Below, in pieces: positions 1 through 25,657 of a stretch of DNA of 25,657 nucleotides. The stretch comes from a virus (lineage: Duplodnaviria; Caudoviricetes), in IMG/VR virus record IMGVR_UViG_3300020045_002833, positions 1 to 25,657 of that record; one strand, given 5' to 3'. Every line of letters starts with the position of its first letter. The stretch's first letter is position 1. The notes below the pieces were generated by a model that saw only the letters and a program-made list of their open reading frames with translations, was not told the DNA's origin and made no database searches. The translations under genes were made by a program, and so were the position numbers.

Positions 1-859
1 TCACATCAGCTGGTGTGCCGAGTTGACGTTTTGCACCAAGAAGAGTAAACGGCAACTGTGTCAACGCCATCATTTCAAGTTCGTGCGGATCGGTGAAGGT
101 GTTTGCAAAGGCACTCCACCCCTCACCTTTTGGTGCAACAATCCCATTTTGAACAGCCGCACTGGCAACCTGCGCCCCAAACATACCAGCTTCGTGTCCG
201 GCATAAGAAACAGCGCGAGCAGGGAGGCCAAGAAGCTGTCCACCCTGAGTTAATGCTTGTCCACCTGCTGCAACAGTTTCAGCCGCCGCCGGTCCTCGTG
301 CAAGGAAGCTCCCGAGTTGACCCGACAACACATCATTCCCAGCAGCAAGTGCTTCCGATCTTGCAACATTCAACCCAAAACGCTCTCCGAGGTTTAAGGC
401 CGCATTTGCACCAACCCTTCCAGCCGCCGGAAGCAGTGGCATCATTGCAGCAGACACCAACCCCGCGCCTGCACTATCAGTCTTCTCGAAGGTGTTTGCC
501 CCCGCCATCAACGAACTTCCTGCCATGCCAATCGCAGGAAGTGCGCCAGCCATACCCCCCGTCAACATCATCGGAGCCATGTCAACTGTCATCCGAGGAA
601 CACTCTCAAACAATCCTGCTGGTGCACCAAGAGCCTGACCAAGTTGGTCTGTGGCCTGTGGTGCACCAGTGGCATTGATCATTTGATCAAGTCCAAAACT
701 ACCTGCTTTGAACAACTTCCCCACACCATTCCCAAATCCCGCAGAATAATCGTTTGCAGGATCATTTGCTTGTTGTTGACGTGCGAAGGCATCGGAAGAC
801 ATTTCTGTCAATCCGTATTGTTCTTGTAGTTTTCGAATGTCGGAGTAGGAGAGTTTCAT
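1..859 (-). CDS. Large internal virion/ejection-type protein, N-terminal part (runs off left end of window)
   Basis: Not in ORF track because it has no stop in the window. ATG at 859 reads MKLSYSDIRKLQEQYGLTEMSSDAFARQQQ... and stays open to base 1. Gly/Ala/Met-rich hydrophobic stretches (MMLTGGMAGALPAIGMAGSSLMAG). Third gene after two Gln-rich genes, as in podovirus ejection protein clusters. Confidence 0.7.
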   Translation of the reverse strand, partial: MKLSYSDIRKLQEQYGLTEMSSDAFARQQQANDPANDYSAGFGNGVGKLFKAGSFGLDQMINATGAPQATDQLGQALGAPAGLFESVPRMTVDMAPMMLTGGMAGALPAIGMAGSSLMAGANTFEKTDSAGAGLVSAAMMPLLPAAGRVGANAALNLGERFGLNVARSEALAAGNDVLSGQLGSFLARGPAAAETVAAGGQALTQGGQLLGLPARAVSYAGHEAGMFGAQVASAAVQNGIVAPKGEGWSAFANTFTDPHELEMMALTQLPFTLLGAKRQLGTPADV

Positions 860-868
860 ACAGAAGGT

Positions 869-1705
869 TTAATATGGCGCAGAGAATTGTGTTTTGCCAA
901 AGAAGAAGGGTTTCGAACGAGGTGTTGGGGTTCCACTGACATTTGGTTCAGTTGAACGAGGAATGCCGAGAAGAGAGGTCAACCAGGTTTGGGCGTCGAA
1001 TTGAGGGTTGTCAACTCGACCCCGCATAGTGTTGACCCAGTCCGACATTTGTGAACTAGGTTGTTTGATTGGACCCCAAGCAGGCTCAGGGGTTTGAGAT
1101 GGAATGGCTGTGCCAGGTGCAGAGAATTGTTGTTGTGGTGCCAAAGCACCTTGCATGAACGGAGCAACCGAACGGTCTTGCTGTCTCTGTTGGTATGCTG
1201 GACTTGCTACCTCAGCCTTTGCCCGGTTGATGATCGCATCCCATTCAGTCGCTGGGTTCGTCGCAGCAGACACAAAAGATGGATTCCCCTGAACTTTCTG
1301 GAATCCACCTTGCGCCGCCATTGGTTGGCTTTGAGGTGCATTATTCGGATCGTTGAAGAATTTGGAAAAACCTTCTTGTTGCAATCCACTTGGATTCTTT
1401 GGTTCAAATGGGTCGGGTTGACGAACGGCAGGAGATTGCGCAGCAACTTGTGGGGCCGCTGGAGTTGGCGCACTCGGTGCCTGCATTCTCCACGCCGCCA
1501 TGGTTTGTGGAGCCTGCTGTTGACCTGGCATCTGAATACTTCCATCCAGATTCCGTCGAATCTGCATCTTCCCACTCCCCATGAGGAGGAGGGCGAGATT
1601 TGGGTTGATTCCACCAACCCCCTGTTGCTGACCGTTAAGTCCACGCCTTGTTGAAATTCCACCCTGCCCTTGCAGGAGTGCCATTAGATTTGGGTTTGAA
1701 GTCAT
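869..1705 (-). CDS. Gln/Pro/Gly-rich putative internal virion (ejection) protein, 278 aa
   Basis: ORF packed between neighbours, low-complexity composition, N-terminal duplicated motif; function inferred from position. Confidence 0.6.
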   Translation of the reverse strand: MTSNPNLMALLQGQGGISTRRGLNGQQQGVGGINPNLALLLMGSGKMQIRRNLDGSIQMPGQQQAPQTMAAWRMQAPSAPTPAAPQVAAQSPAVRQPDPFEPKNPSGLQQEGFSKFFNDPNNAPQSQPMAAQGGFQKVQGNPSFVSAATNPATEWDAIINRAKAEVASPAYQQRQQDRSVAPFMQGALAPQQQFSAPGTAIPSQTPEPAWGPIKQPSSQMSDWVNTMRGRVDNPQFDAQTWLTSLLGIPRSTEPNVSGTPTPRSKPFFFGKTQFSAPY

Positions 1706-1708
1706 GGT

Positions 1709-2770
1709 TTAGCGATTGTAGAAGTTTGGTGGGAGGGGTGCGGTGAATTTGGGAGCCTGATTGTTGACAATTTGTTGCTGCAACATCGGACCCTGAATGC
1801 CGGTTGGGGAAAGTAGTCCCATAAGCCAAGACATAATCCCCGGACTTTCTTTGGTTCTGCGTTGTTCCGGGGTTTGGTTTTGCCAACCCAACAAGCCTTC
1901 CATATCCTTCGGCCCAAGTTGGGGGAGAATGGAAGGATTGAAGTCTGGTTGAGTTGCAAGAGTTTGGTATCCTTTGAGGTAGTTTTGTTGCATCGGGGAC
2001 AGGCTGCCTTGGAGGTCTGGTTGCTGTTGGATTGCTTGGGAAACTTGTTGTCCGGCAACAAATGGGGTTTGTGAGTTGGCCTGCATGGAATTCACAAAAG
2101 GCTGGAGTTGCTCCGGCGGAAGCTGTGTGGCGGGGTACATCCCACGAATACGATCAGCAAGTTCCGAAGGTAAGAATGCAGCAACATTGTCAATCTTTTG
2201 TCGCTGCGCTTGCAAACCGGAAAGGTCCGTCGCCGGTCCTTGTGGAAGAAGGGGCACAACATTCTGAGCCATACTGGCAAGCTGTGCTTGCTTCTGCGTC
2301 ATGTAAATGTCTTTCTGCATTTGTTGCATTGCCATTTCAGCCTCCACCTGCTGAGGATAATACTGATTCTTCAACATCTGTTGCTCCAGTTGCAGCGGCT
2401 GAAGTTGAGAATTGAAATCCAGCTGACTCCGAACCCCTTGGCCTTGGAGTTGCTGATTATCGTATTCTTGTTGAAGCATCTGCAACTTCAACGGATCGAC
2501 CTGCTGTTGCAAATCCAGTTCCTGCTGGAGTTTCTGCACCATCAACGGATTGAGCACCCCTTGTTGGGCCTGCTGCTGTTGTTGTGCATCATACTGCGCC
2601 TGCAACATCTGGAGTTGGATCGGGGACATCTGTCCGCGAATATCCATTTCCTGTTGTTGGGAGGCGAGTTGTTGCTGAAGTAATTGTTCGCGAGCTGTCT
2701 GTTCAGGTGAGAACATCTGATACATCTGCAAGAGTTCTTGCATTCCAGAATTTTTGTCTTTACGTTTCAT
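1709..2770 (-). CDS. Gln-rich coiled-coil putative internal virion (ejection/pilot) protein, 353 aa
   Basis: Very Q/L/M-rich helical N-half with repeated PLxLQMLQQEYD-like motif; follows tail genes in podo-like order. Confidence 0.65.
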   Translation of the reverse strand: MKRKDKNSGMQELLQMYQMFSPEQTAREQLLQQQLASQQQEMDIRGQMSPIQLQMLQAQYDAQQQQQAQQGVLNPLMVQKLQQELDLQQQVDPLKLQMLQQEYDNQQLQGQGVRSQLDFNSQLQPLQLEQQMLKNQYYPQQVEAEMAMQQMQKDIYMTQKQAQLASMAQNVVPLLPQGPATDLSGLQAQRQKIDNVAAFLPSELADRIRGMYPATQLPPEQLQPFVNSMQANSQTPFVAGQQVSQAIQQQPDLQGSLSPMQQNYLKGYQTLATQPDFNPSILPQLGPKDMEGLLGWQNQTPEQRRTKESPGIMSWLMGLLSPTGIQGPMLQQQIVNNQAPKFTAPLPPNFYNR

Positions 2771-2772
2771 AA

Positions 2773-3294
2773 TTAAAATAGATACGAGGAATAGCTGATT
2801 TGTGGGACATGGCTTGGGATAGATGCAACGTTAATCGTCATAGCGAGTTCAGGACTCAAGGCGATGTAGGGGGATGCAGTCTGATCACCAAGGGGCCATG
2901 CGAGAGGAATAATGTCGTTGTTTGGGCCAATCGCAAACAGAGGAAGGTAGAAGGTGCTCGATGCGTTTGCAGGGATGGAGGATTGCCAGATGATGTCTTG
3001 GGTTGAACTACTCGTCCCCGGACTGAAATACTCATTCCCAAACCCATCAACATCCCAAGCAACCTCAGTTCGAAGGATGACAAAGCCGGTTGTAGTTGTG
3101 CGAGGAACTACATTATTATGCCAATCACTGGAATCCAGAGAAACCGTTGCAATGGTGATTGGAGTGGAATCGCTTGTGAAAAAGGGGATCAAAACAGAAT
3201 CATCCAACAACACCCCAGCACCCCAAGGAAAACCAGCAAGGACTCCGAAGAAGTAATCAAAATTCCGGTCAAACTCTGATGCATGGTCTCTCAT
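2773..3294 (-). CDS. Hypothetical virion/tail protein, 173 aa
   Basis: ATGA overlap with upstream gene; beta-strand-like, aromatic/Ser/Thr-rich sequence. Confidence 0.6.
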   Translation of the reverse strand: MRDHASEFDRNFDYFFGVLAGFPWGAGVLLDDSVLIPFFTSDSTPITIATVSLDSSDWHNNVVPRTTTTGFVILRTEVAWDVDGFGNEYFSPGTSSSTQDIIWQSSIPANASSTFYLPLFAIGPNNDIIPLAWPLGDQTASPYIALSPELAMTINVASIPSHVPQISYSSYLF

Positions 3295-3818
3295 ACAAGA
3301 TAATTGAAGGTGCCATTCCAGAATGGTGCGACTGGGGTTGTTTTGAACAGCGAATACGAACAGAAGAGAATTGCACCTGTGTTGTCAAGGGATGCAATGT
3401 CAAAATATGTTACTGTGCTGGTGGGTGCAGGAGCCGCTGCGGTGTCCATGACAATCTCACACGCAGAGATAGAAACCGTCCCATTCGGGTATGGCCCACT
3501 AGGGGCAACTTGGGAGTAGGTGAATTTTGCCCTAATATAGACAGGATTGGCAACCGAAACACTAAGAATATTTGAAAGATAATTCAGGTCCATTGCAGAC
3601 CCGCCAACCGACGGAATGATGATGGTTCCATTGAAGGTGAAGATGCCGAAGTTCAAGCAAACACTACTGGAGGAAACCCTCCGAACAAGCCACGAATGGT
3701 TGATTTGGTATCGTGGGTTTTCTAGGGGTTGGCTGGCAAGGGAACGCGGATCAACCTGACCATTCCCTTTCGGTAACATGAAGGGTGCGTCAACGTTTCT
3801 GGAGTTAAAAATTTCCAT
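3291..3818 (-). CDS. Putative tail protein, 175 aa (HSW/HPW-motif type)
   Basis: Coupled ORF; NHSWLV...FNGTIIIPSVGG...VYIRAKF resembles motifs in 22051-22638 and 21197-22054. Confidence 0.6.
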   Translation of the reverse strand: MEIFNSRNVDAPFMLPKGNGQVDPRSLASQPLENPRYQINHSWLVRRVSSSSVCLNFGIFTFNGTIIIPSVGGSAMDLNYLSNILSVSVANPVYIRAKFTYSQVAPSGPYPNGTVSISACEIVMDTAAAPAPTSTVTYFDIASLDNTGAILFCSYSLFKTTPVAPFWNGTFNYLV

Positions 3819-3820
3819 GA

Positions 3821-5104
3821 TTATTCAAGATAGACATACATTCTCCGTCTCCACAACAAACAATAATTCCACGGCCTGCGTTCATCGGAAATACAAACCT
3901 CAGTTTCAACTGCATCCACATAATCCTGTGCAGTAAAAGGAGTTCCACCAACAGTTAAAGATTCCACCGCAAGACTGCCATAGTATGTGTCATCAATGTG
4001 GGTGGTGGCCTCAAGTAAAAACGGATCAAGGAGGAGGTTTTGAAGTTGAAGGGAGAATAAACGCCCCTGAAAAAGCACATCCGCAAGTTGGGGGGAGAAC
4101 ACACTATCTGTGGGTGTGGGTGTTGGAACCGCAACCGTTGGGTCGGCAGGTAGAAGTGAATCCACAACCCGAACCGAAACATTCCTAGTGAAGCCCCAGC
4201 GAACATCGAGAGTCAACGAAAATTCACTCCTACCTTGAGGTGTAATGAACCAACTGCTGGGAACAATATTATCCGCCAACAAGTAGCTGGGGAAGGTGAA
4301 GGGTTGTGTTGTGTAAAATTCCCTCTCCCAAGTATCCCAACCCAACAATTCTCGAACCTCCTTAACAAGGGTGTTCTTCTGTTGCACAATTCTTGTTGAT
4401 GTTCCTGGAACACAATCAAGGTTGCTTTGAGCCAACGCCAAAGATGGGGTGCCAACGATTCGGGTTTTAGTTGTGGAAACCTCTAAGCAGGTTTCAGAAT
4501 CACACTCAAGGCCGTAGGTTGTTTTATTTGTGCTGCGGGTTTCAGCACGCTGGATTGTGTGCTGGCAATCAACCTCGGCCTGCGTATAAATGACAGTGTC
4601 TGTGCTGGCAGGAAGACTTGTGCCGGGGGCAACAACAGTTTCGGTAATTGTAATTGTATTCCCATCCTCATCCAACTCCACACTAGCCCTTGCTTCAAAC
4701 CCAGTTGTGGTGGTTGTTTCACGCAGAAAATTCGCCGTGTTGAGTTGCTTGACAGTCGACCCAACCACAAGAAAACCCTCCTCAGAATTTGTGCCCGCAG
4801 GCATGACCTTCTTCGTGGTTGTGCTGGTGCAGATGAACTTCTGCAACCCAGAAAAAACAATGGTGTCCTTGTCGATGACATTGGCCGGGGTTCCACTAAC
4901 CTTCTTGTATCGGCTCTTCTGCGTGTTTCTTTCATTGACAGTTTCCGACAAAAGCGTCCCATAAGCGAGGGCGGTTGGATCAGTGTCATGGGGAACCTCC
5001 TGATCAATCTTGGTTGCAACAGAACCCAAAACCGGATCATACCCCTCGGATTTGAGGGGTTTGCCGGAGAAATTGTTGTCGGGGTTGTTTGTGGAGATTG
5101 CCAT
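3821..5104 (-). CDS. Thr-rich putative tail protein with ~4 degenerate internal repeats, 427 aa
   Basis: Long ORF directly after the adaptor; Thr/Val/Glu-rich alternating patterns suggest beta structure. Confidence 0.65.
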   Translation of the reverse strand: MAISTNNPDNNFSGKPLKSEGYDPVLGSVATKIDQEVPHDTDPTALAYGTLLSETVNERNTQKSRYKKVSGTPANVIDKDTIVFSGLQKFICTSTTTKKVMPAGTNSEEGFLVVGSTVKQLNTANFLRETTTTTGFEARASVELDEDGNTITITETVVAPGTSLPASTDTVIYTQAEVDCQHTIQRAETRSTNKTTYGLECDSETCLEVSTTKTRIVGTPSLALAQSNLDCVPGTSTRIVQQKNTLVKEVRELLGWDTWEREFYTTQPFTFPSYLLADNIVPSSWFITPQGRSEFSLTLDVRWGFTRNVSVRVVDSLLPADPTVAVPTPTPTDSVFSPQLADVLFQGRLFSLQLQNLLLDPFLLEATTHIDDTYYGSLAVESLTVGGTPFTAQDYVDAVETEVCISDERRPWNYCLLWRRRMYVYLE

Positions 5105-5111: not shown

Positions 5112-5813
5112 TTACCAATTCATTTCATTATCGAGACTGCTTTCGTGTTGGAAAGTATCAAAATTCTGGAGCGCCATAAGCGCACTTTCCCACATGCTTT
5201 TCGGTTCAGGTTGAACCCCTTCTTGCCGAGGAAGAAACACCCCGTATTGTTTGTTCATGAAAACAACAGCATACCAGAGAAGGTATTCCCACCCATGAGT
5301 TAGAAAGAAATCCTCGTCAGCTTCTTCATCGGCATAATCCGAGGTGAAGAAATAACCCGAAACCTGACAGGTGAAGGGGACCTGTTCCACATCGGAACAA
5401 TAGATGCTGTTACCTTGAAGCAACAAGACATTTTCTGCCCCCGAATAAACATAACTATTTTCCTTCTCTGCCTTCCGAATCCGTCCGTGTTGGGTTTTCA
5501 ACCGCTGGAGAACAACCTTCTGATATTTCCCACCCCCCACACTAGAGAGCACCCACCCGCTACTTGTGGTGTAGGCTTCTGCAAATTCAATACTCTTCAA
5601 CAAGGGGAACTCTGTCCCCAAGTCAACCCGCTCGGAACCATCCAACACAAACTGACCCTCACCCCAACTAAAACGCCAGTCGTAGTTTAGCTCCGCTTGC
5701 TTCTTCGCTGCGTTGATCGCCATAAGAGCAAAAGCACGAGCAGCAGCATCCCCCGTCGGATTGGTTACCGAGAGGATTGTCAGCGCCTGTGTGATTAGAG
5801 AGGTGAGGGTCAT
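5112..5813 (-). CDS. Head-tail adaptor (podovirus tail tubular A/P22 gp4/SU10 adaptor-like), 233 aa
   Basis: N-terminal MTLTSLI...AINAAKKQAELNYDWRF helix pattern and C-terminal HGWEYLLWYAV recall the adaptor family; position just after the capsid gene. Confidence 0.65.
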   Translation of the reverse strand: MTLTSLITQALTILSVTNPTGDAAARAFALMAINAAKKQAELNYDWRFSWGEGQFVLDGSERVDLGTEFPLLKSIEFAEAYTTSSGWVLSSVGGGKYQKVVLQRLKTQHGRIRKAEKENSYVYSGAENVLLLQGNSIYCSDVEQVPFTCQVSGYFFTSDYADEEADEDFFLTHGWEYLLWYAVVFMNKQYGVFLPRQEGVQPEPKSMWESALMALQNFDTFQHESSLDNEMNW

Positions 5814-6079: not shown

Positions 6080-7465
6080 TTAGGAAGCCGTGATGGATTT
6101 GAAGTTACGCAAATACATGTGGGTTTCAGGAAAGCGCACCTCGAATCCGACGTCGGTGAAGAACTCGTCTTTCCGTCCATCGAAGTCAGGGGCGTGGATG
6201 CTTTGGTTGATGTGGGTGTCCCGACCAGCGGTAGGACGCAGGCGGAGGTTTCCGACATCCAGAACAAAGCCATCATACTTCAACCAGCTCTGCGCATTGA
6301 AGCGTGGGTGAGAGCGGAAGTGAAGCACACCATGGCTGGTTTCGATTGTGCGAAGATCGAAGCCGAGTTTGTGCTCAGCTGCGAAGTCCTTGTTCGTGAC
6401 GATTTTGTCCTTGTAGTAGGTGTTGAGTGCCACGATGACACCCTGACCACAGAGAAGGAGTTTCTCATCCGAACATTTGACCTTCTTGGTGAAGATCCGT
6501 GCGAGGAGGTTTTCGAACTCAGCCTCGGTCAATGCACCCGTGGAAGGCACAGTGACAATGCGCTTGTCTTCATCATCCCATGCGGTGAGGGCCGAGCCAC
6601 CTGGACGGTAGCCGAAGGTTCCGCCACCACTCTTTTCCCACTCTTGCAAGAACCAGTAGATTCCACCAAGCGTGCGCACATTCGTGGCAGAGGTGGCAGC
6701 GTCAGTTGCGGTTGTGGCGAACTTCGTCCGGGAACCAAAGAGGAGGGCATTCTCCAACCCAACCATGTGCACGAGTTGCAACTCACGCATTGCGGTTTTG
6801 TAGAACCCGCTCTTGTCGAACTCGGCAGGCTGAGTCAATGCGGTTGCACTGAAGGCCTGAGAATCGCGGAAGATTTGGTTGTAGTTGGTGATTTCGATTG
6901 GGAAAATCAACGGACGGGAGTTGCCAGAAAGCGAACCCTCGATTTGAGCATTGCCCAAAAGGATGACTGTTTTGCCTGCATTGCCAATGGCATTGTCGAT
7001 GGTGAGAGCATCAAACACCCGAAGAGTGAGGATGCCACTTGCCACAGCGGTGACTTGAGCGCGAACGTGTGTGGTTGTGGAACCGCCATTGATCACACAG
7101 TCTTGGACCATGATGATACTTCCAACAGGGAATTTGGCCTCATCACCCGTGGTGATGGCGAGCCGTTCCGTGTCATCAGCGGCGAGAACAACCGTTGCAG
7201 TGGCGACACCAGAAGCGCCGGGAAGCCAACCGCCAAAATTAGCGGAAGCTCCAACCGATTCGACGGTGACAGTAGTGACTTCTTTCCACCGATTCTCAAG
7301 CCACGAATATTCGGGGCCGTCGATAGGATCGGGTTCAAGAAGCGAGAGGAGGCCACAAAGCGGGGATGCGCCAGTGGGGAATGCGTACATGATTTCACGG
7401 CGCATGTTTTTGCGCTTCCATGTTGCGATGTCTGAGCCGATAAGGGCTTGGAATCCGAGTGCCAT
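6080..7465 (-). CDS. Major capsid protein (SU10/DUF5309-like, HK97 fold), 461 aa
   Basis: Motifs YSWLEN, GNAQIEG, NYNQIFR, LENALLFG, LGGI and C-terminal DGRKDEFFTDVGFEV recall this family; follows scaffold, precedes terminator. Confidence 0.85.
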   Translation of the reverse strand: MALGFQALIGSDIATWKRKNMRREIMYAFPTGASPLCGLLSLLEPDPIDGPEYSWLENRWKEVTTVTVESVGASANFGGWLPGASGVATATVVLAADDTERLAITTGDEAKFPVGSIIMVQDCVINGGSTTTHVRAQVTAVASGILTLRVFDALTIDNAIGNAGKTVILLGNAQIEGSLSGNSRPLIFPIEITNYNQIFRDSQAFSATALTQPAEFDKSGFYKTAMRELQLVHMVGLENALLFGSRTKFATTATDAATSATNVRTLGGIYWFLQEWEKSGGGTFGYRPGGSALTAWDDEDKRIVTVPSTGALTEAEFENLLARIFTKKVKCSDEKLLLCGQGVIVALNTYYKDKIVTNKDFAAEHKLGFDLRTIETSHGVLHFRSHPRFNAQSWLKYDGFVLDVGNLRLRPTAGRDTHINQSIHAPDFDGRKDEFFTDVGFEVRFPETHMYLRNFKSITAS

Positions 7466-7509: not shown

Positions 7510-8205
7510 CTATTCGTCCCAGATGGATGTGGGCTGTTGCGACTTTGCACCAGCACCAGGACCGCCTGCGCCTTGCCCTCCACCAGACAGGGATGCTGGT
7601 GCAGGATAAGTGGAAGGCGGCGTGCCTCCCGATGATGGTGTTGCAGAGGGTGCTTCGAGAGAAAATGTGGGGTCAACCCCCTTAACAGTTTCAGCCGAGC
7701 GCTGAGCCAACAACGAAAAGAGTTCCTCCCGCGTCTGCGGAGGGTTTGGAAGATTACCAAGTTCGGCAAGGGTCATTTTGACGAGTTTATCGTGCTTCTT
7801 GAGGCCGGGGTTCGACTCGTAGAAGTCGTTGAACTGAGCCTTTGTGTGGAGTTCCTGTGCAGCCGCAAGATGGGAACCGTAGTTCTTTTGAAACTCCTGT
7901 TGGTATTGGCCGAGGTCGTGCCGATACAAATGTTGGGAGGTTGTGACGGCCTCGGTGACAGCGCCTGCAACAATCTGCTTGAGCGCCTGTAGGCGTGTTT
8001 GCTGAGTTGCGGTTTCGGAAAACAGCGCATTCAGGTGGGATTCATCAGGATTGAACCGCTTCAACATCTTTCCAAGTTCTTCATCGGAAAGGGGTTGTTG
8101 TTGCTGTTGAGGCTGCGCACCCACACCAGCCATCTTTAGGGCTTGTGCAAGTTCGGCAGCAGTGAGGCCCCCTTTAGAGGGTGGTTCTGTGGCGGGAGTT
8201 GACAT
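7510..8205 (-). CDS. Capsid scaffolding protein, 231 aa
   Basis: Helical Q/E/A-rich body, FYESNPGL motif, Gly/Pro/Ser-rich tail ending SIWDE; between portal and capsid. Confidence 0.7.
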   Translation of the reverse strand: MSTPATEPPSKGGLTAAELAQALKMAGVGAQPQQQQQPLSDEELGKMLKRFNPDESHLNALFSETATQQTRLQALKQIVAGAVTEAVTTSQHLYRHDLGQYQQEFQKNYGSHLAAAQELHTKAQFNDFYESNPGLKKHDKLVKMTLAELGNLPNPPQTREELFSLLAQRSAETVKGVDPTFSLEAPSATPSSGGTPPSTYPAPASLSGGGQGAGGPGAGAKSQQPTSIWDE

Positions 8206-8206: not shown

Positions 8207-8560
8207 TTATTGTTGGTTTTGGTTTGGGAGGGATTTGAGGACTTCTTCGGCTTCGGCAGAAGCCAGTTGATCGTTCAAATCGGAGAGAATAATTTCAAAC
8301 ATTTGGACCTTTTCTTGCACAATTCGGAGTTGGCCGAGTTGCTGTTCCCTTAAAATGAAGGTTGCAAAGTCAGTTGGCGGGATTGCAACCGACGAAATGA
8401 TTTCATTCAGCTCAGCCTGGGCTTCTGCAACAATCGAAAGCCCCACGTCACTGGACTGGAACTGCTGGGTCTCCAGGATTAGGCGTTTGATTTCCGGCAG
8501 ACTGAGCGAGGGCAAGCTGCTGTTGCTGTTGTTGGAGGGCGAGAAGCTGTTGGGGGTCAT
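8207..8560 (-). CDS. Small helical protein between portal and scaffold, ~117 aa (start uncertain)
   Basis: Preferred ATG at 8560 with AT-rich leader (caattcaaatATG); amphipathic helices LSLPEIKRLILETQQF and LREQQLGQLRIV; overlaps portal 3' end. Confidence 0.6.
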   Translation of the reverse strand: MTPNSFSPSNNSNSSLPSLSLPEIKRLILETQQFQSSDVGLSIVAEAQAELNEIISSVAIPPTDFATFILREQQLGQLRIVQEKVQMFEIILSDLNDQLASAEAEEVLKSLPNQNQQ

Positions 8561-13906: not shown

Positions 13907-13910
13907 GGTG

Positions 13911-15556: not shown

Positions 15557-15557
15557 T

Positions 15558-17985: not shown

Positions 17986-20354
17986 TAGGTGAAGGAAACT
18001 TTAGCGTTGGACATCTTGGCCCAAACTGCGCCTTTTTGGTCGCGTGTTGAGTTCTCAGTGTCGAATTGTCCGAGTCTGAAACGAATCAGGAACGATGATT
18101 TTTCACTGTCGAAAGTTGGCGCGTCGTCGGAATCCTCCCATGATCCATAAAGCAACTTCTTGGCAGTGATGACATCGGAAATTGAACGGAATACGGCCAC
18201 GCCAAACGTATGCTTGACTCGCGTGTTGGAAACGATGATTCGCTTGTCACTAGCCCAATCGTCGGTTGACGCGGTTGGATATGAAATGTCCTCAAGGTTG
18301 TCGTCTGTTGTCGCCGGAGACGTGTCCATTGAGTCGTCGCCGAATTCAATCAGTGCGAGGTATTGGCAATTTACGTCGGTGCCGATTGTCTGAATTTCCA
18401 AGTCGAAAGTGAGAGTCATTTCCTTCCCAAGTTTCAGCATTCCAGCATTGACCGGAACCGAGAAGAATTCGTGGTCGAATGCTTTCGGGAAATAGGATTT
18501 GAAGGTAGGGCGGTTGTAAACTTTGTAAAACCTTGCTCCATCACCTGCGAAAAACTCGTTCGTCTCAACGTAGAATGACTTGTGACCGCCGCCACCTGGA
18601 ACAAGGAAGCGCGTGCTTGTATTCTTCCAAACGATGCTCGCGATGGATGGTAGAGAGGTAACTTCCGTTGGTGCGGACGAATGATTTGCGGGCAACAAAA
18701 TCTTGTAGCGGTTAAGCGCCACTGGTCCTTCCTTGAGCTTGGAAAGTTGCGTTTCTGGAATCTCGCCCGGGTATTGCCAGCTTGCGTCTGGAATAGTGAT
18801 TTCTGCCTTGGTTGCTGAATCTGCCACGCTTGAAGGTGAAGTGTAGGGTAAGCGGTCCTCGATTGCTGTTAAGCGGTCCGCGAGATCGTCCAGAGCATCT
18901 TGCAATCCGACAATCTGCGCAATCGTGTGAGTGTGGCTTTGAAAGGCTGAAATTGGCCCTGCTGTTGCAATGACAATCAGAAGCGCGTTCGTTGCTGGAG
19001 CGGAACCAAGCCACGTCACGACTGCGACATTCGCGTTTGTGAAAGTGACGGTGTAATGCGTGCCAAGCTGGTAAAGCGTGCCACCGCTGGCATTACCGCG
19101 AACGAGAACGCCCGCCACGTTGTCAGTCGCGAGGTTGTGCGTGACTGTGAAGGAGGTGAGAACGCCATTTCCGACCGCGACTGAATAATACTGCGTTCCC
19201 GTGATAACTTGGTCAACGGTGAACGGGATATAGTTCGTCGGCTCTGGTGGAATCAGCCAATCGATGCCTTGCACCGTGCCGGCCAACTCTGGAAAGATTT
19301 GCTGGCGAACACAATTTGATAGGACTTGGAAAGTGATAATCCGGCCCGCGATTTCAGGGTCTTCTGGATCTTCACCGAGTTCCATGACTTCAACCTCGAT
19401 TTCAAACGGGATGTTTTCGAGCTTGTCAGCGGCCCGCAATGCTGCGTCGAATTCCACCGTGTTGAGATCCAAAAGGAATTCAGGCGTGCCAGGCTGGAAC
19501 GTCTCAACGGTGACTTCCGCCAAGTCACGCGAGCCATCCGAAAGCAGTCCGATGAATTCGATATAGGCCTCGTTCTCAACTGGATTCGTGACGCGGAAAC
19601 GCTTCAATCCATCATCCCACATTTGGTTAAGCGCATCCTCAATCTGGATTGGTGACGCATCGTTTCCAAGAATGATTGTGGAGCGGTAATCGTATTTTAG
19701 ATAGAACGTGCCGCGAAAGTCCGCCGGAACGAGTAACGATTGAATCTCGTTGATGCTCGTCTCTGTCACGCCGTCACCCGTATTGCCTGCGCGGATTCGC
19801 TCAACGCTTGGTTGATCTGCGAGGTTTCGCACCCACGTGTCGGCAAATGCCCACGGTGATTGCAAATACTTGATTTCAACCGTCCACTTGCCGTTAAATT
19901 TGATATACCGAATGCGGACAAATGATCTTGGATCGAGTGAATTCGCTGTGACTGTAAAGGCCGGCTCCGGTTCAGTGTCGGCAAGATCAAGCGTAACTCG
20001 CCATTCGGAAGATCCAAGCAGGTCCACACTTAACGCGTTCCAGTCAGCCTCTGCCGTGTCGAAGATTTCAGCCGCCGTTGCATCAAACGGAATTGAAATT
20101 GCAATACTCTCGTATTCCAACTGCGCCGCTCCGCTGGTCGGTGCCGCGAAACGTCTGCCAAGTGAAGCGCGAATGGAACGAATCGGAACATCGTTGCGGA
20201 TCTTCACTCCAGTTGCGTCGTCTGCCTCAACGAGCGAGAATGCGAACTTCGGCTTGTCACCAAGAATAAACGTCCGCACGGGAGGTGTCCCGCCCTCAGA
20301 GGTTACAAAGGATTGAGTGGCGATGTCGCCGTAAAGTTTTGTTGGTGCAGCCAT
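17985..20354 (-). CDS. Large tail/baseplate structural protein, 789 aa
   Basis: Long acidic beta-rich ORF; fibre-like motifs GNGVLTSFTVTHNL and HTHTIAQIVGLQDALD; internal similarity IPFDATAAEI vs LGNDASPIQIEDAL. Confidence 0.7.
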   Translation of the reverse strand: MAAPTKLYGDIATQSFVTSEGGTPPVRTFILGDKPKFAFSLVEADDATGVKIRNDVPIRSIRASLGRRFAAPTSGAAQLEYESIAISIPFDATAAEIFDTAEADWNALSVDLLGSSEWRVTLDLADTEPEPAFTVTANSLDPRSFVRIRYIKFNGKWTVEIKYLQSPWAFADTWVRNLADQPSVERIRAGNTGDGVTETSINEIQSLLVPADFRGTFYLKYDYRSTIILGNDASPIQIEDALNQMWDDGLKRFRVTNPVENEAYIEFIGLLSDGSRDLAEVTVETFQPGTPEFLLDLNTVEFDAALRAADKLENIPFEIEVEVMELGEDPEDPEIAGRIITFQVLSNCVRQQIFPELAGTVQGIDWLIPPEPTNYIPFTVDQVITGTQYYSVAVGNGVLTSFTVTHNLATDNVAGVLVRGNASGGTLYQLGTHYTVTFTNANVAVVTWLGSAPATNALLIVIATAGPISAFQSHTHTIAQIVGLQDALDDLADRLTAIEDRLPYTSPSSVADSATKAEITIPDASWQYPGEIPETQLSKLKEGPVALNRYKILLPANHSSAPTEVTSLPSIASIVWKNTSTRFLVPGGGGHKSFYVETNEFFAGDGARFYKVYNRPTFKSYFPKAFDHEFFSVPVNAGMLKLGKEMTLTFDLEIQTIGTDVNCQYLALIEFGDDSMDTSPATTDDNLEDISYPTASTDDWASDKRIIVSNTRVKHTFGVAVFRSISDVITAKKLLYGSWEDSDDAPTFDSEKSSFLIRFRLGQFDTENSTRDQKGAVWAKMSNAKVSFT

Positions 20355-20379: not shown

Positions 20380-20403
20380 GTGTAAAATTCCCGAATTTAG
20401 CTA

Positions 20404-20431: not shown

Positions 20432-20447
20432 TTCGTAGATTCAACTG

Positions 20448-20694: not shown

Positions 20695-20717
20695 AGAAGG
20701 ATAGTAGATAATCTATT

Positions 20718-21000: not shown

Positions 21001-21030
21001 GTCAGAAAAGTGCGCGAAATTCTAAAAAGA

Positions 21031-21192
21031 TCAAACCACTTTCTTAGGCGGATCCGCAGTCACACCAAACACGCCAGCAGGAAAAGGAATCGCCACAAAT
21101 GGAAACTTCGGATTGAGCGGAGGAGGCTTAGGAATAGCCGCCCGTGCTTTTGCCTGCGCTGCTGCTGCGTTTGTTTTTGGGTCGAGTGGCAT
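21031..21192 (-). CDS. Small Pro-rich protein, 53 aa
   Basis: Preferred ATG at 21192, 4 nt after upstream stop: MPLDPKTNAAAAQAKARAAIPKPPPLNPKFPFVAIPFP... Confidence 0.55.
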   Translation of the reverse strand: MPLDPKTNAAAAQAKARAAIPKPPPLNPKFPFVAIPFPAGVFGVTADPPKKVV

Positions 21193-21196
21193 ATTG

Positions 21197-22054
21197 TTAA
21201 ACGGTCCAAAAATATCCTTGTGACGCCGACTTAGCAAACCAAGCGTTGATCTGCGCTGAAAGAAATTGGTCCTGCTGGATCTCCGCGAAACTCGGATTCC
21301 CGATGCCGCCAGCAAGCGCCGTCAAGAATGACACTTTCAACTCTTCGAAACTGCTGCCGATGTCCGCCCTGCTCGCGTGGTTGAGATTCCAGAAGCAGTA
21401 GTGGCGCACGTAAAGATCCCAGCTTTGATCTGGATCGTCGCCCGCAACATCTGGCGCCACCGCGTAAATGGTCGCGATTCTTTGCTGATCATAAGGCGGT
21501 TCAACCGCAAGCCCAAGATACCATTCCAAATCTGTAGGCTCTGCGAGCGCTTCTAGTTCGCGACTGGTAACAACTTGATAGCGCGGCACGTTGTTAAAGA
21601 TCGTTGCCGAAAATGAAGTCGTGATGTCGATTTGCCCAAGCGTGGAACTGATTTTCTGATTTGCCGTGATCCGTGGAGAAATTAGAATCACCTCGCAAGT
21701 CTTCAAGAATCGGTCGCCAACTTCCTCCGCGATTGCTGCCGGTGCCGCCGCTCCTACGTTCCAGCCTCCAACTCGTAGTGTGAAACCTTCGCTGATTGGT
21801 TTCCCATTCGCCATGACTTCGCAGCCGTTGACCATGCCAGGCTTAATCCTGATGCGCCAAATCGGCTTTTCATCTCCTTCCTCCTGCGTGAAGACTGGCC
21901 TGCAAAACCATGGATGTTCGTAGTCGTCGGAAGTGTAGCCGTTGAGAATTGCGCCAACTCTGCGATGATCCACCTTGCCGTTGCGCACGGAGATAATCCG
22001 CTCGCGGTTGATCGCCCGTGCCGTGTCGTTGTAATCTCTCGCCGTGCCTTTCAT
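21197..22054 (-). CDS. Putative tail tip protein, 285 aa
   Basis: ATGA-coupled; YEHPWFC...RIKPGMVNG motif; downstream of tape measure. Confidence 0.65.
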   Translation of the reverse strand: MKGTARDYNDTARAINRERIISVRNGKVDHRRVGAILNGYTSDDYEHPWFCRPVFTQEEGDEKPIWRIRIKPGMVNGCEVMANGKPISEGFTLRVGGWNVGAAAPAAIAEEVGDRFLKTCEVILISPRITANQKISSTLGQIDITTSFSATIFNNVPRYQVVTSRELEALAEPTDLEWYLGLAVEPPYDQQRIATIYAVAPDVAGDDPDQSWDLYVRHYCFWNLNHASRADIGSSFEELKVSFLTALAGGIGNPSFAEIQQDQFLSAQINAWFAKSASQGYFWTV

Positions 22055-22638
22055 CCCGCAGCATAAGCCAAATGGCGAGCTTTGCCACTTGCGGCCCCTC
22101 CCGGTCGAGTTCTGACTTCGAGATTATGGATTACGTGCTGAATCGAAATGATGCGCCCCTTGATGTTTTTGATGAACAGAATCGGCACGTTGACCGTTCC
22201 ATCGTCCAAGGTGTCATATCCGCCGATGCCGGGATTGCTGTCGCCCGCGAAAGGTTTCGGCGTGAATTCGTAAGTCCAATATTCAACGCTCCAATCATCC
22301 TTGAAACGGATCTTGGCAACGATCCACGCCCGACCTTCTGCGTCGTAGCTTGGTGAAAACTTGATACTGAAGGGCTCCACCACTTCTTCACCATTGTTGA
22401 GCGGTAGCTTTTTGTTAATCAAACCCGGATTGATCTGGCAAGTGTTACCCTGTAAATCGCATTTGTGAGGGTGATTGAAACTTGCGCCACCGCCAATGAA
22501 ATGCACCCGTGTGCCGTTTGGTGATTTGGCCAACCTTACGTTGCGCCCTGCAATCAGTCGATTCGCTGCAACGCCATCGTCGATAGCTTGCCAGTCATCA
22601 GCCTTTAAAGGGTCGCCCGGTTGAATGTCCTTAATCAT
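22051..22638 (-). CDS. Putative tail tip protein, 195 aa
   Basis: IQPGDPLKADDWQAI...IAGRNVRLAKSPNGT N-terminus and FNHPHKC...INPGLIN motif; ATGA-coupled. Confidence 0.65.
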   Translation of the reverse strand: MIKDIQPGDPLKADDWQAIDDGVAANRLIAGRNVRLAKSPNGTRVHFIGGGASFNHPHKCDLQGNTCQINPGLINKKLPLNNGEEVVEPFSIKFSPSYDAEGRAWIVAKIRFKDDWSVEYWTYEFTPKPFAGDSNPGIGGYDTLDDGTVNVPILFIKNIKGRIISIQHVIHNLEVRTRPGGAASGKARHLAYAAG

Positions 22639-22847
22639 CGCTTCTTGGAAGTTTTTACCATCTGCCGTTCAAGTGTAGATGTTAACTCCTTTGTCAAGGA
22701 GTGCGCGCAGAGTGCATCCGCAAGTTTCCTGCCAGCCTCATTAATGATGGCCACATCACCGATCAACAGTAACACCCCTCTTCGATCAACCGCCAAAGCA
22801 GTTATTTCGCCGTGAATATTGTGGATTTCTATTCTTGTGATGTCCAT
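22635..22847 (-). CDS. Hypothetical protein, 70 aa
   Basis: Fills the gap exactly, with ATGA overlap to the next gene. Confidence 0.55.
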   Translation of the reverse strand: MDITRIEIHNIHGEITALAVDRRGVLLLIGDVAIINEAGRKLADALCAHSLTKELTSTLERQMVKTSKKR

Positions 22848-22849
22848 AG

Positions 22850-23602
22850 TTATGTCAGTTGTGACGATGAGTAGATTTTCTTAAGCCATCCGCGCGGTCC
22901 AGAAAGCATCCATTCAGCGGAAATCTGATAACGGTTACCACGCTCGGAAATCTTCGGCCCAAGTTTCAGCCAGTTGCGCTTGATGGGAATGGTGATGCCG
23001 AGTTTGGACAAGCCTTGTGGCCTGTTGGTAATGGTGCCGATGCCCTGCATTACCCAAGATGGAATAGTGCGGCCTGAGAACGAAACGCGGAGTTGAGCGC
23101 CTGGAACCAGCCAAGCCTCTGTCCCGTATGCGTCCGACCGTTGCACGTTGTCCTTTTGCAGTCCGCTTTGAACGCTAGTAAGGGTTTCATCTCCCGGCAT
23201 GAATTCCTTGAATTTGTGCTCGTTGTAATCCCACCCGTAGTATTCAACCAGAGATTTGAAATCAGGGTGCGCTTCCATAGGCGCTTCCGTCATCGTGTTA
23301 TCAAGCTCGACTGTATATTCAGACTCCGACATCTCACCCTGCGAATCACTGCCGCCCTCGTAATTGTAAGTCACGAACGCCACGCCTTTTTCCACCTTGC
23401 AACTTGAGCCGACACATGGAATCCCGAATGGATCTGGAGCCGATGAAGGTAGAAGCCAATCAGGATTGATTTTCGCGTCCGTGGTTTCGATCTGGAAACG
23501 CGATTCAACCTCACCGCTAAAAATGAGCAGTTTGTTGCACCGCAAACCCTTGATTGAATAGTTCGCGCTTCCTAATGCTCTTCCTCTGATGTTTATTGCC
23601 AT
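22850..23602 (-). CDS. Putative distal tail/hub-like protein following tape measure, 250 aa
   Basis: Overlaps TMP stop; EAPMEAHPDF and RNWLKLG...YQISAEWMLSGPRGW motifs; positional inference. Confidence 0.65.
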   Translation of the reverse strand: MAINIRGRALGSANYSIKGLRCNKLLIFSGEVESRFQIETTDAKINPDWLLPSSAPDPFGIPCVGSSCKVEKGVAFVTYNYEGGSDSQGEMSESEYTVELDNTMTEAPMEAHPDFKSLVEYYGWDYNEHKFKEFMPGDETLTSVQSGLQKDNVQRSDAYGTEAWLVPGAQLRVSFSGRTIPSWVMQGIGTITNRPQGLSKLGITIPIKRNWLKLGPKISERGNRYQISAEWMLSGPRGWLKKIYSSSQLT

Positions 23603-25149
23603 ACGGGTTTTTTATCTCGAATTTCCTTGAGTAGTTCGGTCTGCGTGTTCGCCTGCCGCTCAATCTTCTCAGATGCACGGGCAATGCGTTCCTCTGTGGT
23701 GCCGCGTGACGTGCCGACGAATCCGCCGCCGCCGATCTTGGTGATTGCGTCGCTTACAACCGTGTCTTTGATTTTTGATGCCACCTGAGCGAGCTTCTTT
23801 TGCCGCTCCTCTTCCTCTTTCATCTTCCGGTTCTCTTCCTCGTTCTTGCTGCTCTGCGTCTGCGATGGAGCGACTTGGAAATTGTCCTTGGTGAATTTGC
23901 CCGCAAGATTGGAAACGGAATCAATGAACGCATTTCCTGCCGCTTGCTGCGCCGTGTTTGAATTGCGCATCATGTCCGCGGCCTGAGCGTTTGCGCCTTG
24001 CGCCCTGATCTTGGAAAGCTGATCTTGAACGTCTTTGATTTCCTGCTCGAATGGCCCCTTGTTCAAAATGGCCTCAGTCTGGATTTCACCGATTGCTTTG
24101 CTCCTCTCTTCCAAGCTCTTAAACGGCTTCACCATCTCGAATCCGATCTTGATCTCAGCGAGCACGTTTGCCATTTTGATGGCGAAGAAATTCGCAGCTT
24201 CCAGCAGTCCGAGCTTGAGCGGCTGAATGATCGCATCAACCGCATTCCCTTTCTCGAATGCTCCGCGAATGTAAGATCCCCATTCGGCGATTGAACTTCC
24301 AACGTCTTTCGCTGCCGTCTTCATTCCGCCGAGTTTCTCAATCGCAAACTGCATCAGAGGCTTGAGCGAGTCCATGATTGGCGTAGCAAACTCAACTTTC
24401 ACAGCATCCCAGCCCGCCAAGAGCGTTGACTTCAAACCGTTGAACGTGCCGCTCTGCTGCGCCATCATTCCGTTGAACTTGCCACCGCGTGCTGTCATGT
24501 CTTGGAATGCCTTTTCCAGCATTCCGAAATTGATTTTCCCCTCACTTCCCATCTTTTTCACCTGCTCGACACCTACGCCGAGTTGTGCCGCGAAGGAATC
24601 CAGCACGTTGATCCCCCTGCCTGTTAGCTGGTTGATGTCTTCTGCGAAAAGTGTTCCTTGCACGCGAGCCTTGCCGAAAATCTCGGAGATCTCACCAATT
24701 GGAGCACCAACGCCAGAGGCAATGTCTCCGATGGTTGTCAGTGTCTGCGCAACGGTGCCGGCTGATTGCCCGAACGCGAGCAGGCTTTTCGCTGCGTCGT
24801 TGATCTCCTGATCTCCATAAGGCGAAGTGTCCGCGAGCTTTTTAAGCTGCCCTAGAACCTGGGTTGTCTCTTCAACGCTGCCAATGAGAACCTTGAAGCT
24901 GGTTCGCGTCTGCTCTGCTTGTCCAGCAACGTCAAACGCGCTGGCTATTTGATCCTTGAGAGCGCCAAGCGGTGCCGTTAGTTTACCAATGAAATCAAAC
25001 GCGCCATTGAGGACGTTTAGCTTCCCGGCCAATCCAGTGATGCCTTTCAACTGCTCACGCATTGCGCCGAATGACGAATTAAGTTTCGCCAATCCGGTAT
25101 TCAACGCGCTGGCATCTAAGCCAACATTTACTTTGACGCCATCAGCCAT
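23593..25149 (-). CDS. Tail tape measure protein, 518 aa
   Basis: N-terminal VKVNVGLDASALNTGL; tape-measure domain EQTRTSFKVLIGS...ADTSPY...AKSLLAFG...IGDIASG...EDINQLTGRGI...QSGTFNGLKSTL. Confidence 0.9.
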   Translation of the reverse strand: MADGVKVNVGLDASALNTGLAKLNSSFGAMREQLKGITGLAGKLNVLNGAFDFIGKLTAPLGALKDQIASAFDVAGQAEQTRTSFKVLIGSVEETTQVLGQLKKLADTSPYGDQEINDAAKSLLAFGQSAGTVAQTLTTIGDIASGVGAPIGEISEIFGKARVQGTLFAEDINQLTGRGINVLDSFAAQLGVGVEQVKKMGSEGKINFGMLEKAFQDMTARGGKFNGMMAQQSGTFNGLKSTLLAGWDAVKVEFATPIMDSLKPLMQFAIEKLGGMKTAAKDVGSSIAEWGSYIRGAFEKGNAVDAIIQPLKLGLLEAANFFAIKMANVLAEIKIGFEMVKPFKSLEERSKAIGEIQTEAILNKGPFEQEIKDVQDQLSKIRAQGANAQAADMMRNSNTAQQAAGNAFIDSVSNLAGKFTKDNFQVAPSQTQSSKNEEENRKMKEEEERQKKLAQVASKIKDTVVSDAITKIGGGGFVGTSRGTTEERIARASEKIERQANTQTELLKEIRDKKPVWQ

Positions 25150-25657
25150 CTTGAACCTCCTTTTTCATTTCCTCTTCCATTTCTTTGATGAATTCCGCTT
25201 CGTCTGGCGTTACGATCTGGCTTGAAGTAACTCCTTCGATTTCAGCGATTGCTGCCGACTTCCAGAAAATCTTCCCAATCGGAGCAGTCCAGATTTCCGC
25301 CTCTGTCATGTTCGTTTTAAGCTCCAAGAATGACGCAACCGAGAGCAGTGCCGGTGCCCGCATTGGCTCACCGTTTTTTGATTCCCAAAAGATTGGGCGA
25401 GAATCAAAGTCCTTGAGGTAAGCGCGAAACTTGGCGAGTTCCTGGGCAAACGAAACACGCTTGCATTTGTGCGCCCAAAACGTCCGCCTGAACCCCTCTA
25501 GTGAAACTCTTCCAGCCTGCAAATCCTCATACTTCGATGAGCAAACCAAAACCGCAGCGAGCAAGTCTTCTTGAGTCGGATTATCTCCGAAATATGCCGC
25601 GTTCTGGTCGAGAGAGAGAAAGAATAAGTCATACAGACAGAACGGGTGAAGACGCCG
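25142..25657 (-). CDS. Pre-tape-measure protein (tail assembly chaperone-like), 5'-truncated by window
   Basis: Frame is open from the last base (RRLHPFCLYDLFFLSLDQNAAYFGDNPTQEDLLAAVLVCS...); MTEAEIWTAPIG motif; overlaps TMP start. Confidence 0.65.
   Translation of the reverse strand, partial: RRLHPFCLYDLFFLSLDQNAAYFGDNPTQEDLLAAVLVCSSKYEDLQAGRVSLEGFRRTFWAHKCKRVSFAQELAKFRAYLKDFDSRPIFWESKNGEPMRAPALLSVASFLELKTNMTEAEIWTAPIGKIFWKSAAIAEIEGVTSSQIVTPDEAEFIKEMEEEMKKEVQDG

What the first reader, a model, noticed from the sequence alone, without database searches (positions are those of the whole stretch)
1..25657. Long-tail module joined to a podovirus-type head and ejection module in one co-oriented run
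Seen: right half encodes a tape measure and tail-tip genes; left half encodes terL, P22/SU10-like portal, scaffold, capsid, adaptor and three Gln/Gly-rich ejection-type proteins, with no promoter-sized gap at the seam. Established: tape measure proteins and podoviral ejection proteins are normally alternative DNA-delivery solutions. Inference: a hybrid/dual-tail phage, one phage nested in or recombined with another, a head-only element using a foreign tail, or an assembly chimera.
Basis: partly seen in the sequence, partly recalled or inferred. Interest (0 to 1): 0.85.

Follow-up and report, generated by a model that had tools for sequence, protein, structure and literature searches.

The report
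Two different phages joined mid-contig
This contig joins the tail genes of a long-tailed phage to the lysis, head and injection genes of an unrelated short-tailed phage at the end of a tail-fibre gene, most likely by an assembly error or a one-off recombination, so it is probably not a new two-tailed virus.

Summary
In detail: one minus-strand run carries a tape measure and tail-tip cluster (14–25.7 kb) and a podoviral terL, portal, SU10-type capsid, adaptor and ejection-type genes (0–11.8 kb). The halves belong to two families never found together elsewhere. Of 50 tail-family records, 0 carry this portal and 46 carry a lambda-like one; 0 of 50 head-family records carry the tail-tip gene; positive controls 5 of 5 each. 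Codon usage splits right after the fibre gene (p=0.002; change point 13.6–14.2 kb). About 92%-identical podophage relatives in two studies follow the window up to 13,590 or 13,906 and then continue into other sequence. The lysis cassette belongs to the podophage; the fibre gene to the long-tailed phage. An in-frame misjoin of the same head family exists in the same collection (L018). Reads of the source sample were unavailable, so assembly chimera (0.62) versus real recent recombinant (0.25) stays open; a working hybrid is unlikely (0.05). Side lead: this podophage lineage has no recognisable nozzle.

The parts
25142..25657 (-). 5'-truncated ORF before the TMP; tail assembly chaperone by position (inferred)
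   Evidence: No Pfam/PHROG hit; homologues in 42 of 158 tail-family loci
23593..25149 (-). Tape measure protein, 518 aa
   Evidence: TMP_3 2.2e-22; phrog_9959 1.8e-49; 94% relative on a separate 3.1-kb contig
21031..23602 (-). Tail-tip cluster: 250, 70, 195, 285 aa and a short ORF; the 195- and 285-aa proteins are paralogues
   Evidence: Homologues of the 250- and 285-aa genes in 89 and 83 of 158 loci in the same order; hhalign 98%
17985..20354 (-). 789-aa tail-tip protein, marker of the long-tailed family
   Evidence: 44 homologues, one 96% identical; 158 loci fetched
15558..17985 (-). Ig-domain protein (250 aa), Gly/Pro-rich protein, DUF6734 protein
   Evidence: He_PIG 1e-4, DUF6734 1e-17; same order in L081, L084, L108
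15535..15556 (-). TTGACA-containing leader motif, shared with 20357-20379; promoter role inferred
   Evidence: 2 matches in the window (pattern made after seeing both sites); TTGACA within 30 nt of ORF starts in 99 of 1205 tail-family versus 5 of 494 head-family upstream regions
13911..15533 (-). Mosaic tail fibre, 540 aa: anchor module aa 1-169 plus a patchwork C-terminal part; belongs mostly to the long-tailed phage
   Evidence: P0047 shares aa 1-169 only, 52%; short 80-90% matches from several different contigs; codon score +20.8 and +17.2 towards the right half
13606..14241 (.). Interval holding the junction between the two phages
   Evidence: Markov change point 14,139, 100-fold likelihood interval 13,606-14,241; loose ends of podophage relatives at 13,590 and 13,906
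13598..13906 (-). 102-aa fibre-associated small gene with many alleles (shared cassette, inferred)
   Evidence: 16 clusters at 65-98%; the allele on a 3,822-nt Logan contig, the length of the relative's contig, is 75% identical while holin-like and endolysin proteins on 3,822-nt contigs are 92% and 98%
11782..13589 (-). Lysis cassette of the podophage: holin-like 95 and 169 aa, small lipoprotein-like 51 aa, 84 aa, GH75-type endolysin 204 aa
   Evidence: Glyco_hydro_75 1.2e-5, under cut-off; one relative contig spans 10151-13906; codon scores -12.5, -18.4, -32.9; holin and spanin labels inferred from hydrophobicity and position
10319..11779 (-). Terminase large subunit
   Evidence: phrog_2 9.5e-18; 215 related stretches in IMG/VR, 80 kept
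8448..10319 (-). P22/SU10-type portal
   Evidence: in 70 of 80 terL loci
7510..8205 (-). Scaffold (by position, inferred)
   Evidence: homologue between portal and capsid in 27 of 80 loci
6080..7465 (-). SU10-type major capsid protein
   Evidence: PF17236 1.4e-23
5112..5813 (-). Podoviral adaptor (tubular tail protein A type)
   Evidence: Model pLDDT 84.7; Foldseek 1.8e-7 to cyanophage A4, 8e-6 to SU10; VIA Z 13.3, rmsd 3.8, 190 aligned to Vibrio VP1
2773..5104 (-). 427-aa beta-rich protein in the nozzle position, plus 175- and 173-aa ORFs; tail role inferred
   Evidence: 31 hits, all in head-family loci; model pTM 0.46
2..2770 (-). Two Gln-rich ejection-type proteins and the N-terminus of a giant protein cut by the contig end
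   Evidence: Composition; 39% over 281 aa to a 2,587-aa protein in G078, 5e-43; LPD37 1.4e-13 in one relative's giant

Best explanation
The contig holds DNA of two unrelated phage families joined at 13.6-14.25 kb, and the join was most likely made by the assembler, which would have crossed from one genome to the other in a fibre-end/small-gene cassette that both likely carry. Right of the join is the tail operon of a long-tailed phage whose family uses a lambda-like head. Left of it is a 41-50 kb-class short-tailed phage whose native order is terS, fibre, lysis, terL, portal, capsid, adaptor, ejection proteins. Both families put fibre genes just before lysis genes, so a crossover there gives one co-oriented run with intact frames. 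Shown: two families, their separate genomes, the position of the seam. Inferred: that both parents share near-identical DNA at the seam, share a host, and that the crossover happened in silico.
For: Separate genomes: window portal in 0 of 50 tail-family records, 0 of 18 near-complete; SU10 capsid 0 of 50; lambda-like portal 46 of 50; tail-tip gene in 0 of 50 head-family records, 0 of 14 near-complete; positive controls 5 of 5. Locus flanks: 0 of 80 terL loci match any gene right of the endolysin; 0 of 158 tail loci match terL, portal, capsid or downstream genes. Composition: 9 of 9 right genes and 11 of 11 left genes score to their own half in leave-one-out codon tests; best split after the fibre, G 41.5 per 1000 codons, p 0.002, against 7.3-28.2 in 12 intact relatives; neither half splits further (p 0.13, 0.66). 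Close relatives: a 3,822-nt contig follows 10151-13906 at about 92% (80% over the last 198 nt) and then goes on unlike the window; in study P2 the loose end is at 13,906 (X4, X5, X6), in study P1 at 13,590 (X1, X3). Native order: endolysin within 3.5 kb before terL in 16 of 34 distinct neighbourhoods (80 of 119 candidate ORFs scanned); terS before fibre and lysis in G053 and G061; terS family in 11 of 14 near-complete relatives but not in the window. Precedent for misjoins: L018 fuses a tail-tube-like ORF in frame to residue ~100 of a terL of this family with GC rising from about 0.33 to 0.50, 1 of 80 terL loci.
Against: No reads or assembly graph of the source sample: the best indexed run held 0.07 of the words. 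All frames across the seam are intact, which real recombination gives just as well. The relatives laid are about 92% identical, not the same strain. I did not recover the two parent sequences at the seam, so the shared repeat is inferred; the 102-aa gene was found in no IMG/VR locus. Four of 12 intact control genomes also gave a split with p under 0.05, so a codon break alone does not prove two genomes. Three of 14 near-complete relatives also lack a terS hit.
Confidence: 0.62

Rival explanations
1. A real, recent recombinant molecule: during co-infection a long-tailed and a short-tailed phage of one host crossed over in the shared fibre-end cassette. It would be transient or defective, since it replaces the podophage's terS and own fibre with a foreign tail operon.
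For: Intact frames at the seam; the fibre is visibly mosaic; close podophage relatives differ from each other just upstream of the lysis cassette; both families can use the GH75-type endolysin (4 of 50 and 1 of 50 records); unblended codon usage fits a recent event.
Against: A dead-end molecule would seldom be abundant enough to be assembled (inference). No second example in 50+50 records or 80+158 loci.
Confidence: 0.25
2. A working hybrid phage: a podoviral head with ejection proteins that builds a long tail, or two tail types, from one late operon.
For: Both modules are complete in frame and co-oriented with gaps of at most 24 nt. In this lineage the gene after the adaptor is not the phrog_3287 protein that G054 and G058 carry there.
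Against: Never seen twice. Estimated genome 51-55 kb before adding tail tube, terminator and terS, against 41-50 kb for 14 near-complete relatives (estimate). The adaptor's top 15 VIA matches are all short-tailed phages. Near-complete relatives with the same adaptor region lack the tail-tip gene.
Confidence: 0.05
3. One phage nested in or next to the other in a host chromosome (tandem prophages or insertion).
For: 12 of 50 tail-family records are classed as proviruses.
Against: 0 of 50 head-family records are proviruses; no integrase hit among 33 window proteins; no long repeat at the seam; the seam lies inside late operons of both.
Confidence: 0.05
4. A head-only, cf-PICI-like element that borrows tails and here sits beside the tail it uses.
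For: In G053 and G061 the adaptor is followed directly by Gln-rich ejection-type genes.
Against: The family has 41-50 kb near-complete genomes with their own fibres, lysis genes and a giant ejection-type protein; cf-PICIs borrow tails in trans and do not encode them (abstract of 10.1101/2025.02.11.637232).
Confidence: 0.03

Closest known systems
Ejectosomal podoviruses of the SU10/phiEco32-LUZ24 group (left half)
   Same: SU10-type capsid and portal profiles; adaptor fold shared with SU10, Pa223, VP1, KHP30; order portal, scaffold, capsid, adaptor, tail, ejection-type genes.
   Different: No close cultured relative: best terL matches 23-25% (Arthrobacter Jasmine/Adat group, MAnkyphage, Pelagibacter phage), capsid 24-26%. 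The 427-aa protein after the adaptor could not be assigned to the nozzle family.
Uncultured long-tailed phage family with lambda-like portal (phrog_21), terL phrog_15, protease phrog_53 (right half)
   Same: TMP followed by the same tail-tip gene order in 158 loci; head genes of G022 and G001.
   Different: No match in 50,697 GenBank phage records for the 789-aa marker. In the window its own head, tube and lysis genes are absent; the contig ends before them on one side and switches family on the other.
cf-PICI satellites (He et al., bioRxiv 10.1101/2025.02.11.637232; abstract and outline seen)
   Same: Idea of a head using a tail of other origin.
   Different: cf-PICIs carry no tail genes and join tails as particles; here the tail genes are in cis and the head family is a full-size phage.
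PhiGT1 dual-tubeA recombinant podoviruses (PMC10386132; passages seen)
   Same: A real recombinant between distinct structural modules.
   Different: Both parents were podoviral, the event is ancient and has many descendants; here one parent is long-tailed, codon usage is unblended and there is one contig.

Membership tests
Ejectosomal podovirus (left half) | P22/SU10-type portal and capsid | tested here: met
   SU10_MCP 1.4e-23 over cut-off; SU10_portal 1.4e-5 under cut-off, phrog_156 7e-9
Ejectosomal podovirus (left half) | Tubular tail A / adaptor | tested here: met
   Foldseek 12 matches at E<=0.001; VIA Z 13.3, rmsd 3.8, 190 aligned
Ejectosomal podovirus (left half) | Tubular tail B / beta-propeller nozzle after the adaptor (PMC10386132, PMC9509320 passages) | tested here: inconclusive
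   427-aa model pTM 0.46, best VIA Z 5.9 over 49 residues; see Tried and rejected
Ejectosomal podovirus (left half) | Ejection proteins after the tail genes | tested here: inconclusive
   Position, Gln-rich composition, giant protein with LPD37 in one relative and LPD39-like Atlas neighbours (0.91, family on 42% of members) for another; the three proteins were not folded
Ejectosomal podovirus (left half) | No long-tail module in complete genomes | tested here: met
   Tail-tip gene 0 of 14 near-complete (control 5 of 5); TMP 0 of 14 but control only 2 of 5
Kuravirus (SU10 genus) | Close sequence kinship of capsid and terminase | tested here: not met
   No Kuravirus among the 15 terL and 3 capsid matches at 1e-5 in 50,697 phage records
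Long-tailed phage with lambda-like head (right half) | Tape measure and conserved tail-tip cluster | tested here: met
Long-tailed phage with lambda-like head (right half) | Own portal, protease, capsid and tail tube upstream of the TMP | not testable with these tools
   The record ends in the gene before the TMP; met in relatives for the portal, 46 of 50
Long-tailed phage with lambda-like head (right half) | Non-contractile tail (no sheath) | not tested
   No family-wide sheath search; no sheath hit among the G022 and G001 proteins scanned
cf-PICI | Encodes capsid and packaging but relies solely on foreign tails | tested here: not met
   Head-family genomes are 41-50 kb with own fibres and lysis genes
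cf-PICI | Integrated satellite with integrase (recalled) | not tested
   No integrase search in the head family; 0 of 50 records classed as provirus
Stable hybrid / dual-tail phage | Both modules together in an independent genome | tested here: not met
   0 of 50, 0 of 50 whole records; 0 of 80, 0 of 158 loci
Stable hybrid / dual-tail phage | Reads spanning the seam at even depth | not testable with these tools
   Source run not among those served

The most novel reading that the evidence does not exclude
A podophage lineage without a recognisable nozzle has really taken up a complete long-tail operon in place of its own fibre region, and makes virions in which an SU10-type head with ejection proteins carries a tape-measure tail: a living crossing between the short-tailed and long-tailed DNA-delivery designs.
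Probability: 0.05. Interest if true: 0.9.

Novelty: not a real feature. Interest (0 to 1): 0.25.

Why it matters
If the join is an artefact, it is a warning: fibre and lysis cassettes shared between phage families can fuse unrelated genomes into a contig with intact, co-oriented genes that looks like a new virion type, and L018 shows a second misjoin in the same collection. If it is a real molecule, it shows recombination across tail types caught before selection. If it were a working hybrid, it would break the rule that ejection proteins and tape measures are alternative solutions. Apart from the join, both parents are abundant uncultured families with no close cultured relative, and the short-tailed one may build its tail without the usual nozzle.

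Tried and rejected
Source reads: not available. In runs X1, X2, X4, X5 the left half had depth about 8-41 per bin and most bins from 15.2 kb on had 0-1 (11 of 16 bins at 0 in all but one run or in all), and nothing lay on 15,112-15,967 in X1, X3, X4, X6; lack of cover in contigs is not taken as evidence. My first placing of the seam at 15,030 (inside the fibre, aa 169) was dropped: the matches over 13.9-15.0 kb are short pieces of different contigs and codon usage and the leader motif put the fibre with the right half. A seam between endolysin and terL was rejected: one relative contig spans it. Idea that the 427-aa left protein is homologous to right tail-tip proteins: hhalign under 0.1%. Nozzle searches: no Foldseek PDB match at E<=0.001, VIA best Z 5.9, BFVD only uncharacterised proteins with TM 0.25 or less, Atlas nothing over 0.80, PF11134 0 of 14 (control rang in E. 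coli), PF25675 0 of 14 with no positive control; none of this shows a new fold. Adaptor plus 427-aa complex: no verdict. Scans for other carriers of the fibre end and the 102-aa gene gave one unrelated podophage (L286) and nothing. GTDB scan with terL gave 7 loci in mixed MAGs, no host assigned; the tail-tip marker was not searched in GTDB. Host: only one 30% homologue named Verrucomicrobiota, a lead. Promoter/terminator scan at the seam at chance level; no long repeats. The full-library HMMER search was not obtained. Literature: 7 full-text searches listed no phage with both a tape measure and podoviral ejection proteins, judged from listings; subscription papers and bioRxiv supplements are not covered. 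Earlier findings: none.
Full report
What is there. The window is a whole 25,657-base virus record. Its main genes all lie on the minus strand. Reading in gene order: a truncated chaperone-position ORF, a 518-aa tape measure protein (TMP_3 2.2e-22; phrog_9959 1.8e-49), tail-tip genes of 250, 195, 285, 789 and 250 aa, a Gly/Pro-rich gene, DUF6734, a 540-aa fibre, a 102-aa gene, a lysis block ending in a GH75-type endolysin, terL, portal, scaffold, SU10-type capsid, a 233-aa gene, genes of 427, 175 and 173 aa, two Gln-rich genes and a gene cut by the contig end. The labels chaperone, scaffold, holin, spanin and 'BppU-like' for the fibre's first domain come from position or recall, not from a hit.

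The left half is a member of a large podophage family. terL found 215 related stretches in IMG/VR, of which 80 were kept; 70 of 80 hold the portal and 52 the capsid, and none matches any gene right of the endolysin (many loci have short upstream flanks). The 14 records that are at least 90% complete measure 41-50 kb. The 233-aa protein folds as a podoviral adaptor (pLDDT 84.7; Foldseek 1.8e-7; VIA Z 13.3, rmsd 3.8, 190 aligned). The leftmost ORF is the start of a giant protein (39% over 281 aa to a 2,587-aa protein); one relative's giant has LPD37 and another lies nearest to LPD39 clusters in the Atlas. That these are ejection proteins is inferred; I did not fold them. In this family lysis genes before terL are native: 16 of 34 distinct neighbourhoods have an endolysin within 3.5 kb (80 of 119 candidate ORFs scanned, one near-duplicate locus left out), and G053 and G061 read terS, small gene, fibre, lysis, terL. 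The window has no match to that terS family, found in 11 of 14 near-complete relatives.

The right half is a member of a separate long-tailed family. The 789-aa protein has 44 homologues; its alignment fetched 158 loci with the same tail-tip order, none matching terL, portal, capsid or anything downstream. Among the 50 longest of 78 viral records, 46 have a lambda-like portal, none has the window's portal or an SU10 capsid. Among the 50 longest of 80 head-family records none has the tail-tip gene. Positive controls were 5 of 5 for these three searches. The TMP search on the head family was also 0 of 50, but its control was 2 of 5, so it is weak. In L084 a fibre-like gene follows DUF6734, as in the window.

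Where the seam is. Leave-one-out codon scores put 9 of 9 right genes and 11 of 11 left genes on their own side; of the held-out middle genes the fibre scores right (+20.8, +17.2) and the 102-aa, holin-like and endolysin genes score left (-6.1, -12.5, -18.4, -32.9). The best single split falls after the fibre (G 317, 41.5 per 1000 codons, p 0.002); 12 intact relatives give 7.3-28.2, four of them with p under 0.05; each half alone does not split. A Markov scan puts the change at 14,139 (13,606-14,241). A TTGACA leader sits before the fibre and before the 789-aa gene only; the pattern was made after seeing both sites, but the hexamer is independently commoner before tail-family ORFs (99 of 1205) than head-family ORFs (5 of 494; related sequences, so not independent counts). 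Contigs of six public runs from two studies hold a podophage about 92% identical to the left half. One 3,822-nt contig spans terL, the lysis block and the 102-aa gene and then continues unlike the window at 13,906; X5 and X6 show the same loose end, X1 and X3 leave at 13,590. The fibre itself is a mosaic: aa 1-169 are shared with P0047 and no further, and the rest is matched in short pieces by different contigs. The 102-aa gene has 16 related clusters.

How it most likely arose. Both families place fibre genes just before lysis genes, and both can use the GH75-type endolysin (4 of 50 and 1 of 50 records). I infer that two co-occurring phages shared near-identical DNA at the fibre end or the 102-aa gene, and that a path entering from the long-tailed phage left through the podophage. 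An assembler or a recombinase gives the same sequence. I favour the assembler (0.62) over a real recent recombinant (0.25): the join is seen once, near-identical proteins of each half occur on separate short contigs, the product lacks the podophage's terS, and the collection holds another misjoin of this family, L018, where an HK97-type head and tail-tube region of GC about 0.33 runs in frame into the middle of terL at GC about 0.50. Against this: no source reads, intact frames, and no parent sequence at the seam. A working hybrid (0.05) would need about 51-55 kb before tube, terminator and terS are added, an estimate from the giant gene (6.5-8.2 kb) and the 19-22 kb non-structural block of G053, G061 and G063, above every near-complete relative.

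Comparison with what is known. SU10 has portal, adaptor, beta-propeller nozzle, needle and five ejection proteins (PMC9509320, passages seen); ejectosomal podoviruses are recognised by tubeB followed by ejection genes (PMC10386132, passages seen). The left half meets portal, capsid and adaptor; the nozzle test is inconclusive. cf-PICIs use foreign tails in trans (10.1101/2025.02.11.637232, abstract and outline seen) and do not fit a 41-50 kb family with its own fibres. PMC6777429 (passages seen) notes that metagenome misassemblies give false mosaic inferences. That tape measures and ejection proteins are alternatives is my own knowledge. Seven searches listed no phage with both.

Side lead. 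Two of six complete head-family genomes fetched (G054, G058) have a phrog_3287 protein after the adaptor; the window, G055, G063, G077 and G078 have the 427-aa family instead, and G053 and G061 go from adaptor straight to Gln-rich genes. The 427-aa family is found in 6 of 14 near-complete genomes. How this lineage closes its tail is open and deserves its own study.

Verdict. Observation confirmed; most likely not one functional virus. Interest 0.25.

Noticed in passing
L018:4571-6679: In-frame fusion of a tail-tube-like ORF of an HK97-type phage (GC 0.29-0.37) to residue ~100 of a terL of the head family (GC about 0.5); a second misjoined contig.
   Followed up: partly
window 3821-5104; G053, G054, G058, G061: The podophage family has at least two tail types after the adaptor: a phrog_3287 protein (G054, G058) or a beta-rich 350-600 aa protein with a variably repeated N-terminal domain; in G053 and G061 nothing lies between adaptor and Gln-rich genes, and in G053 a shorter homologue sits before terL.
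   Followed up: partly
window 21197-22638: The 195- and 285-aa tail-tip proteins share an N-terminal domain (hhalign 98%, 82 columns).
   Followed up: partly
window 20355-21030: 676-nt gap in the tail operon holding a 47-aa hydrophobic ORF at 20857-21000; short pieces at 20438-20486 and 20558-20666 are matched by contigs in runs X1, X2, X4.
   Followed up: no
window 15535-15556 and 20357-20379: Repeated TTGACA leader directly before start codons; common before tail-family genes. Left-half genes have A/C-rich leaders instead.
   Followed up: partly
window 15558-16358; L081, L108: DUF6734 sits at the end of the tail operon, followed in two relatives by genes that look by eye like glycosyltransferases; possible virion glycosylation (no family scan supports the label).
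   Followed up: no
window 13911-14020; L286:1967-2059: The fibre's last 30-35 residues recur in Roseobacter phage RDJL Phi 2 (69%) and in an unrelated podophage contig (73%).
   Followed up: partly
L279 (PBOZ01000004.1): A 46% terL relative lies on a 33.8-kb contig of a Rickettsiales MAG; may be a binned phage, not a prophage.
   Followed up: no
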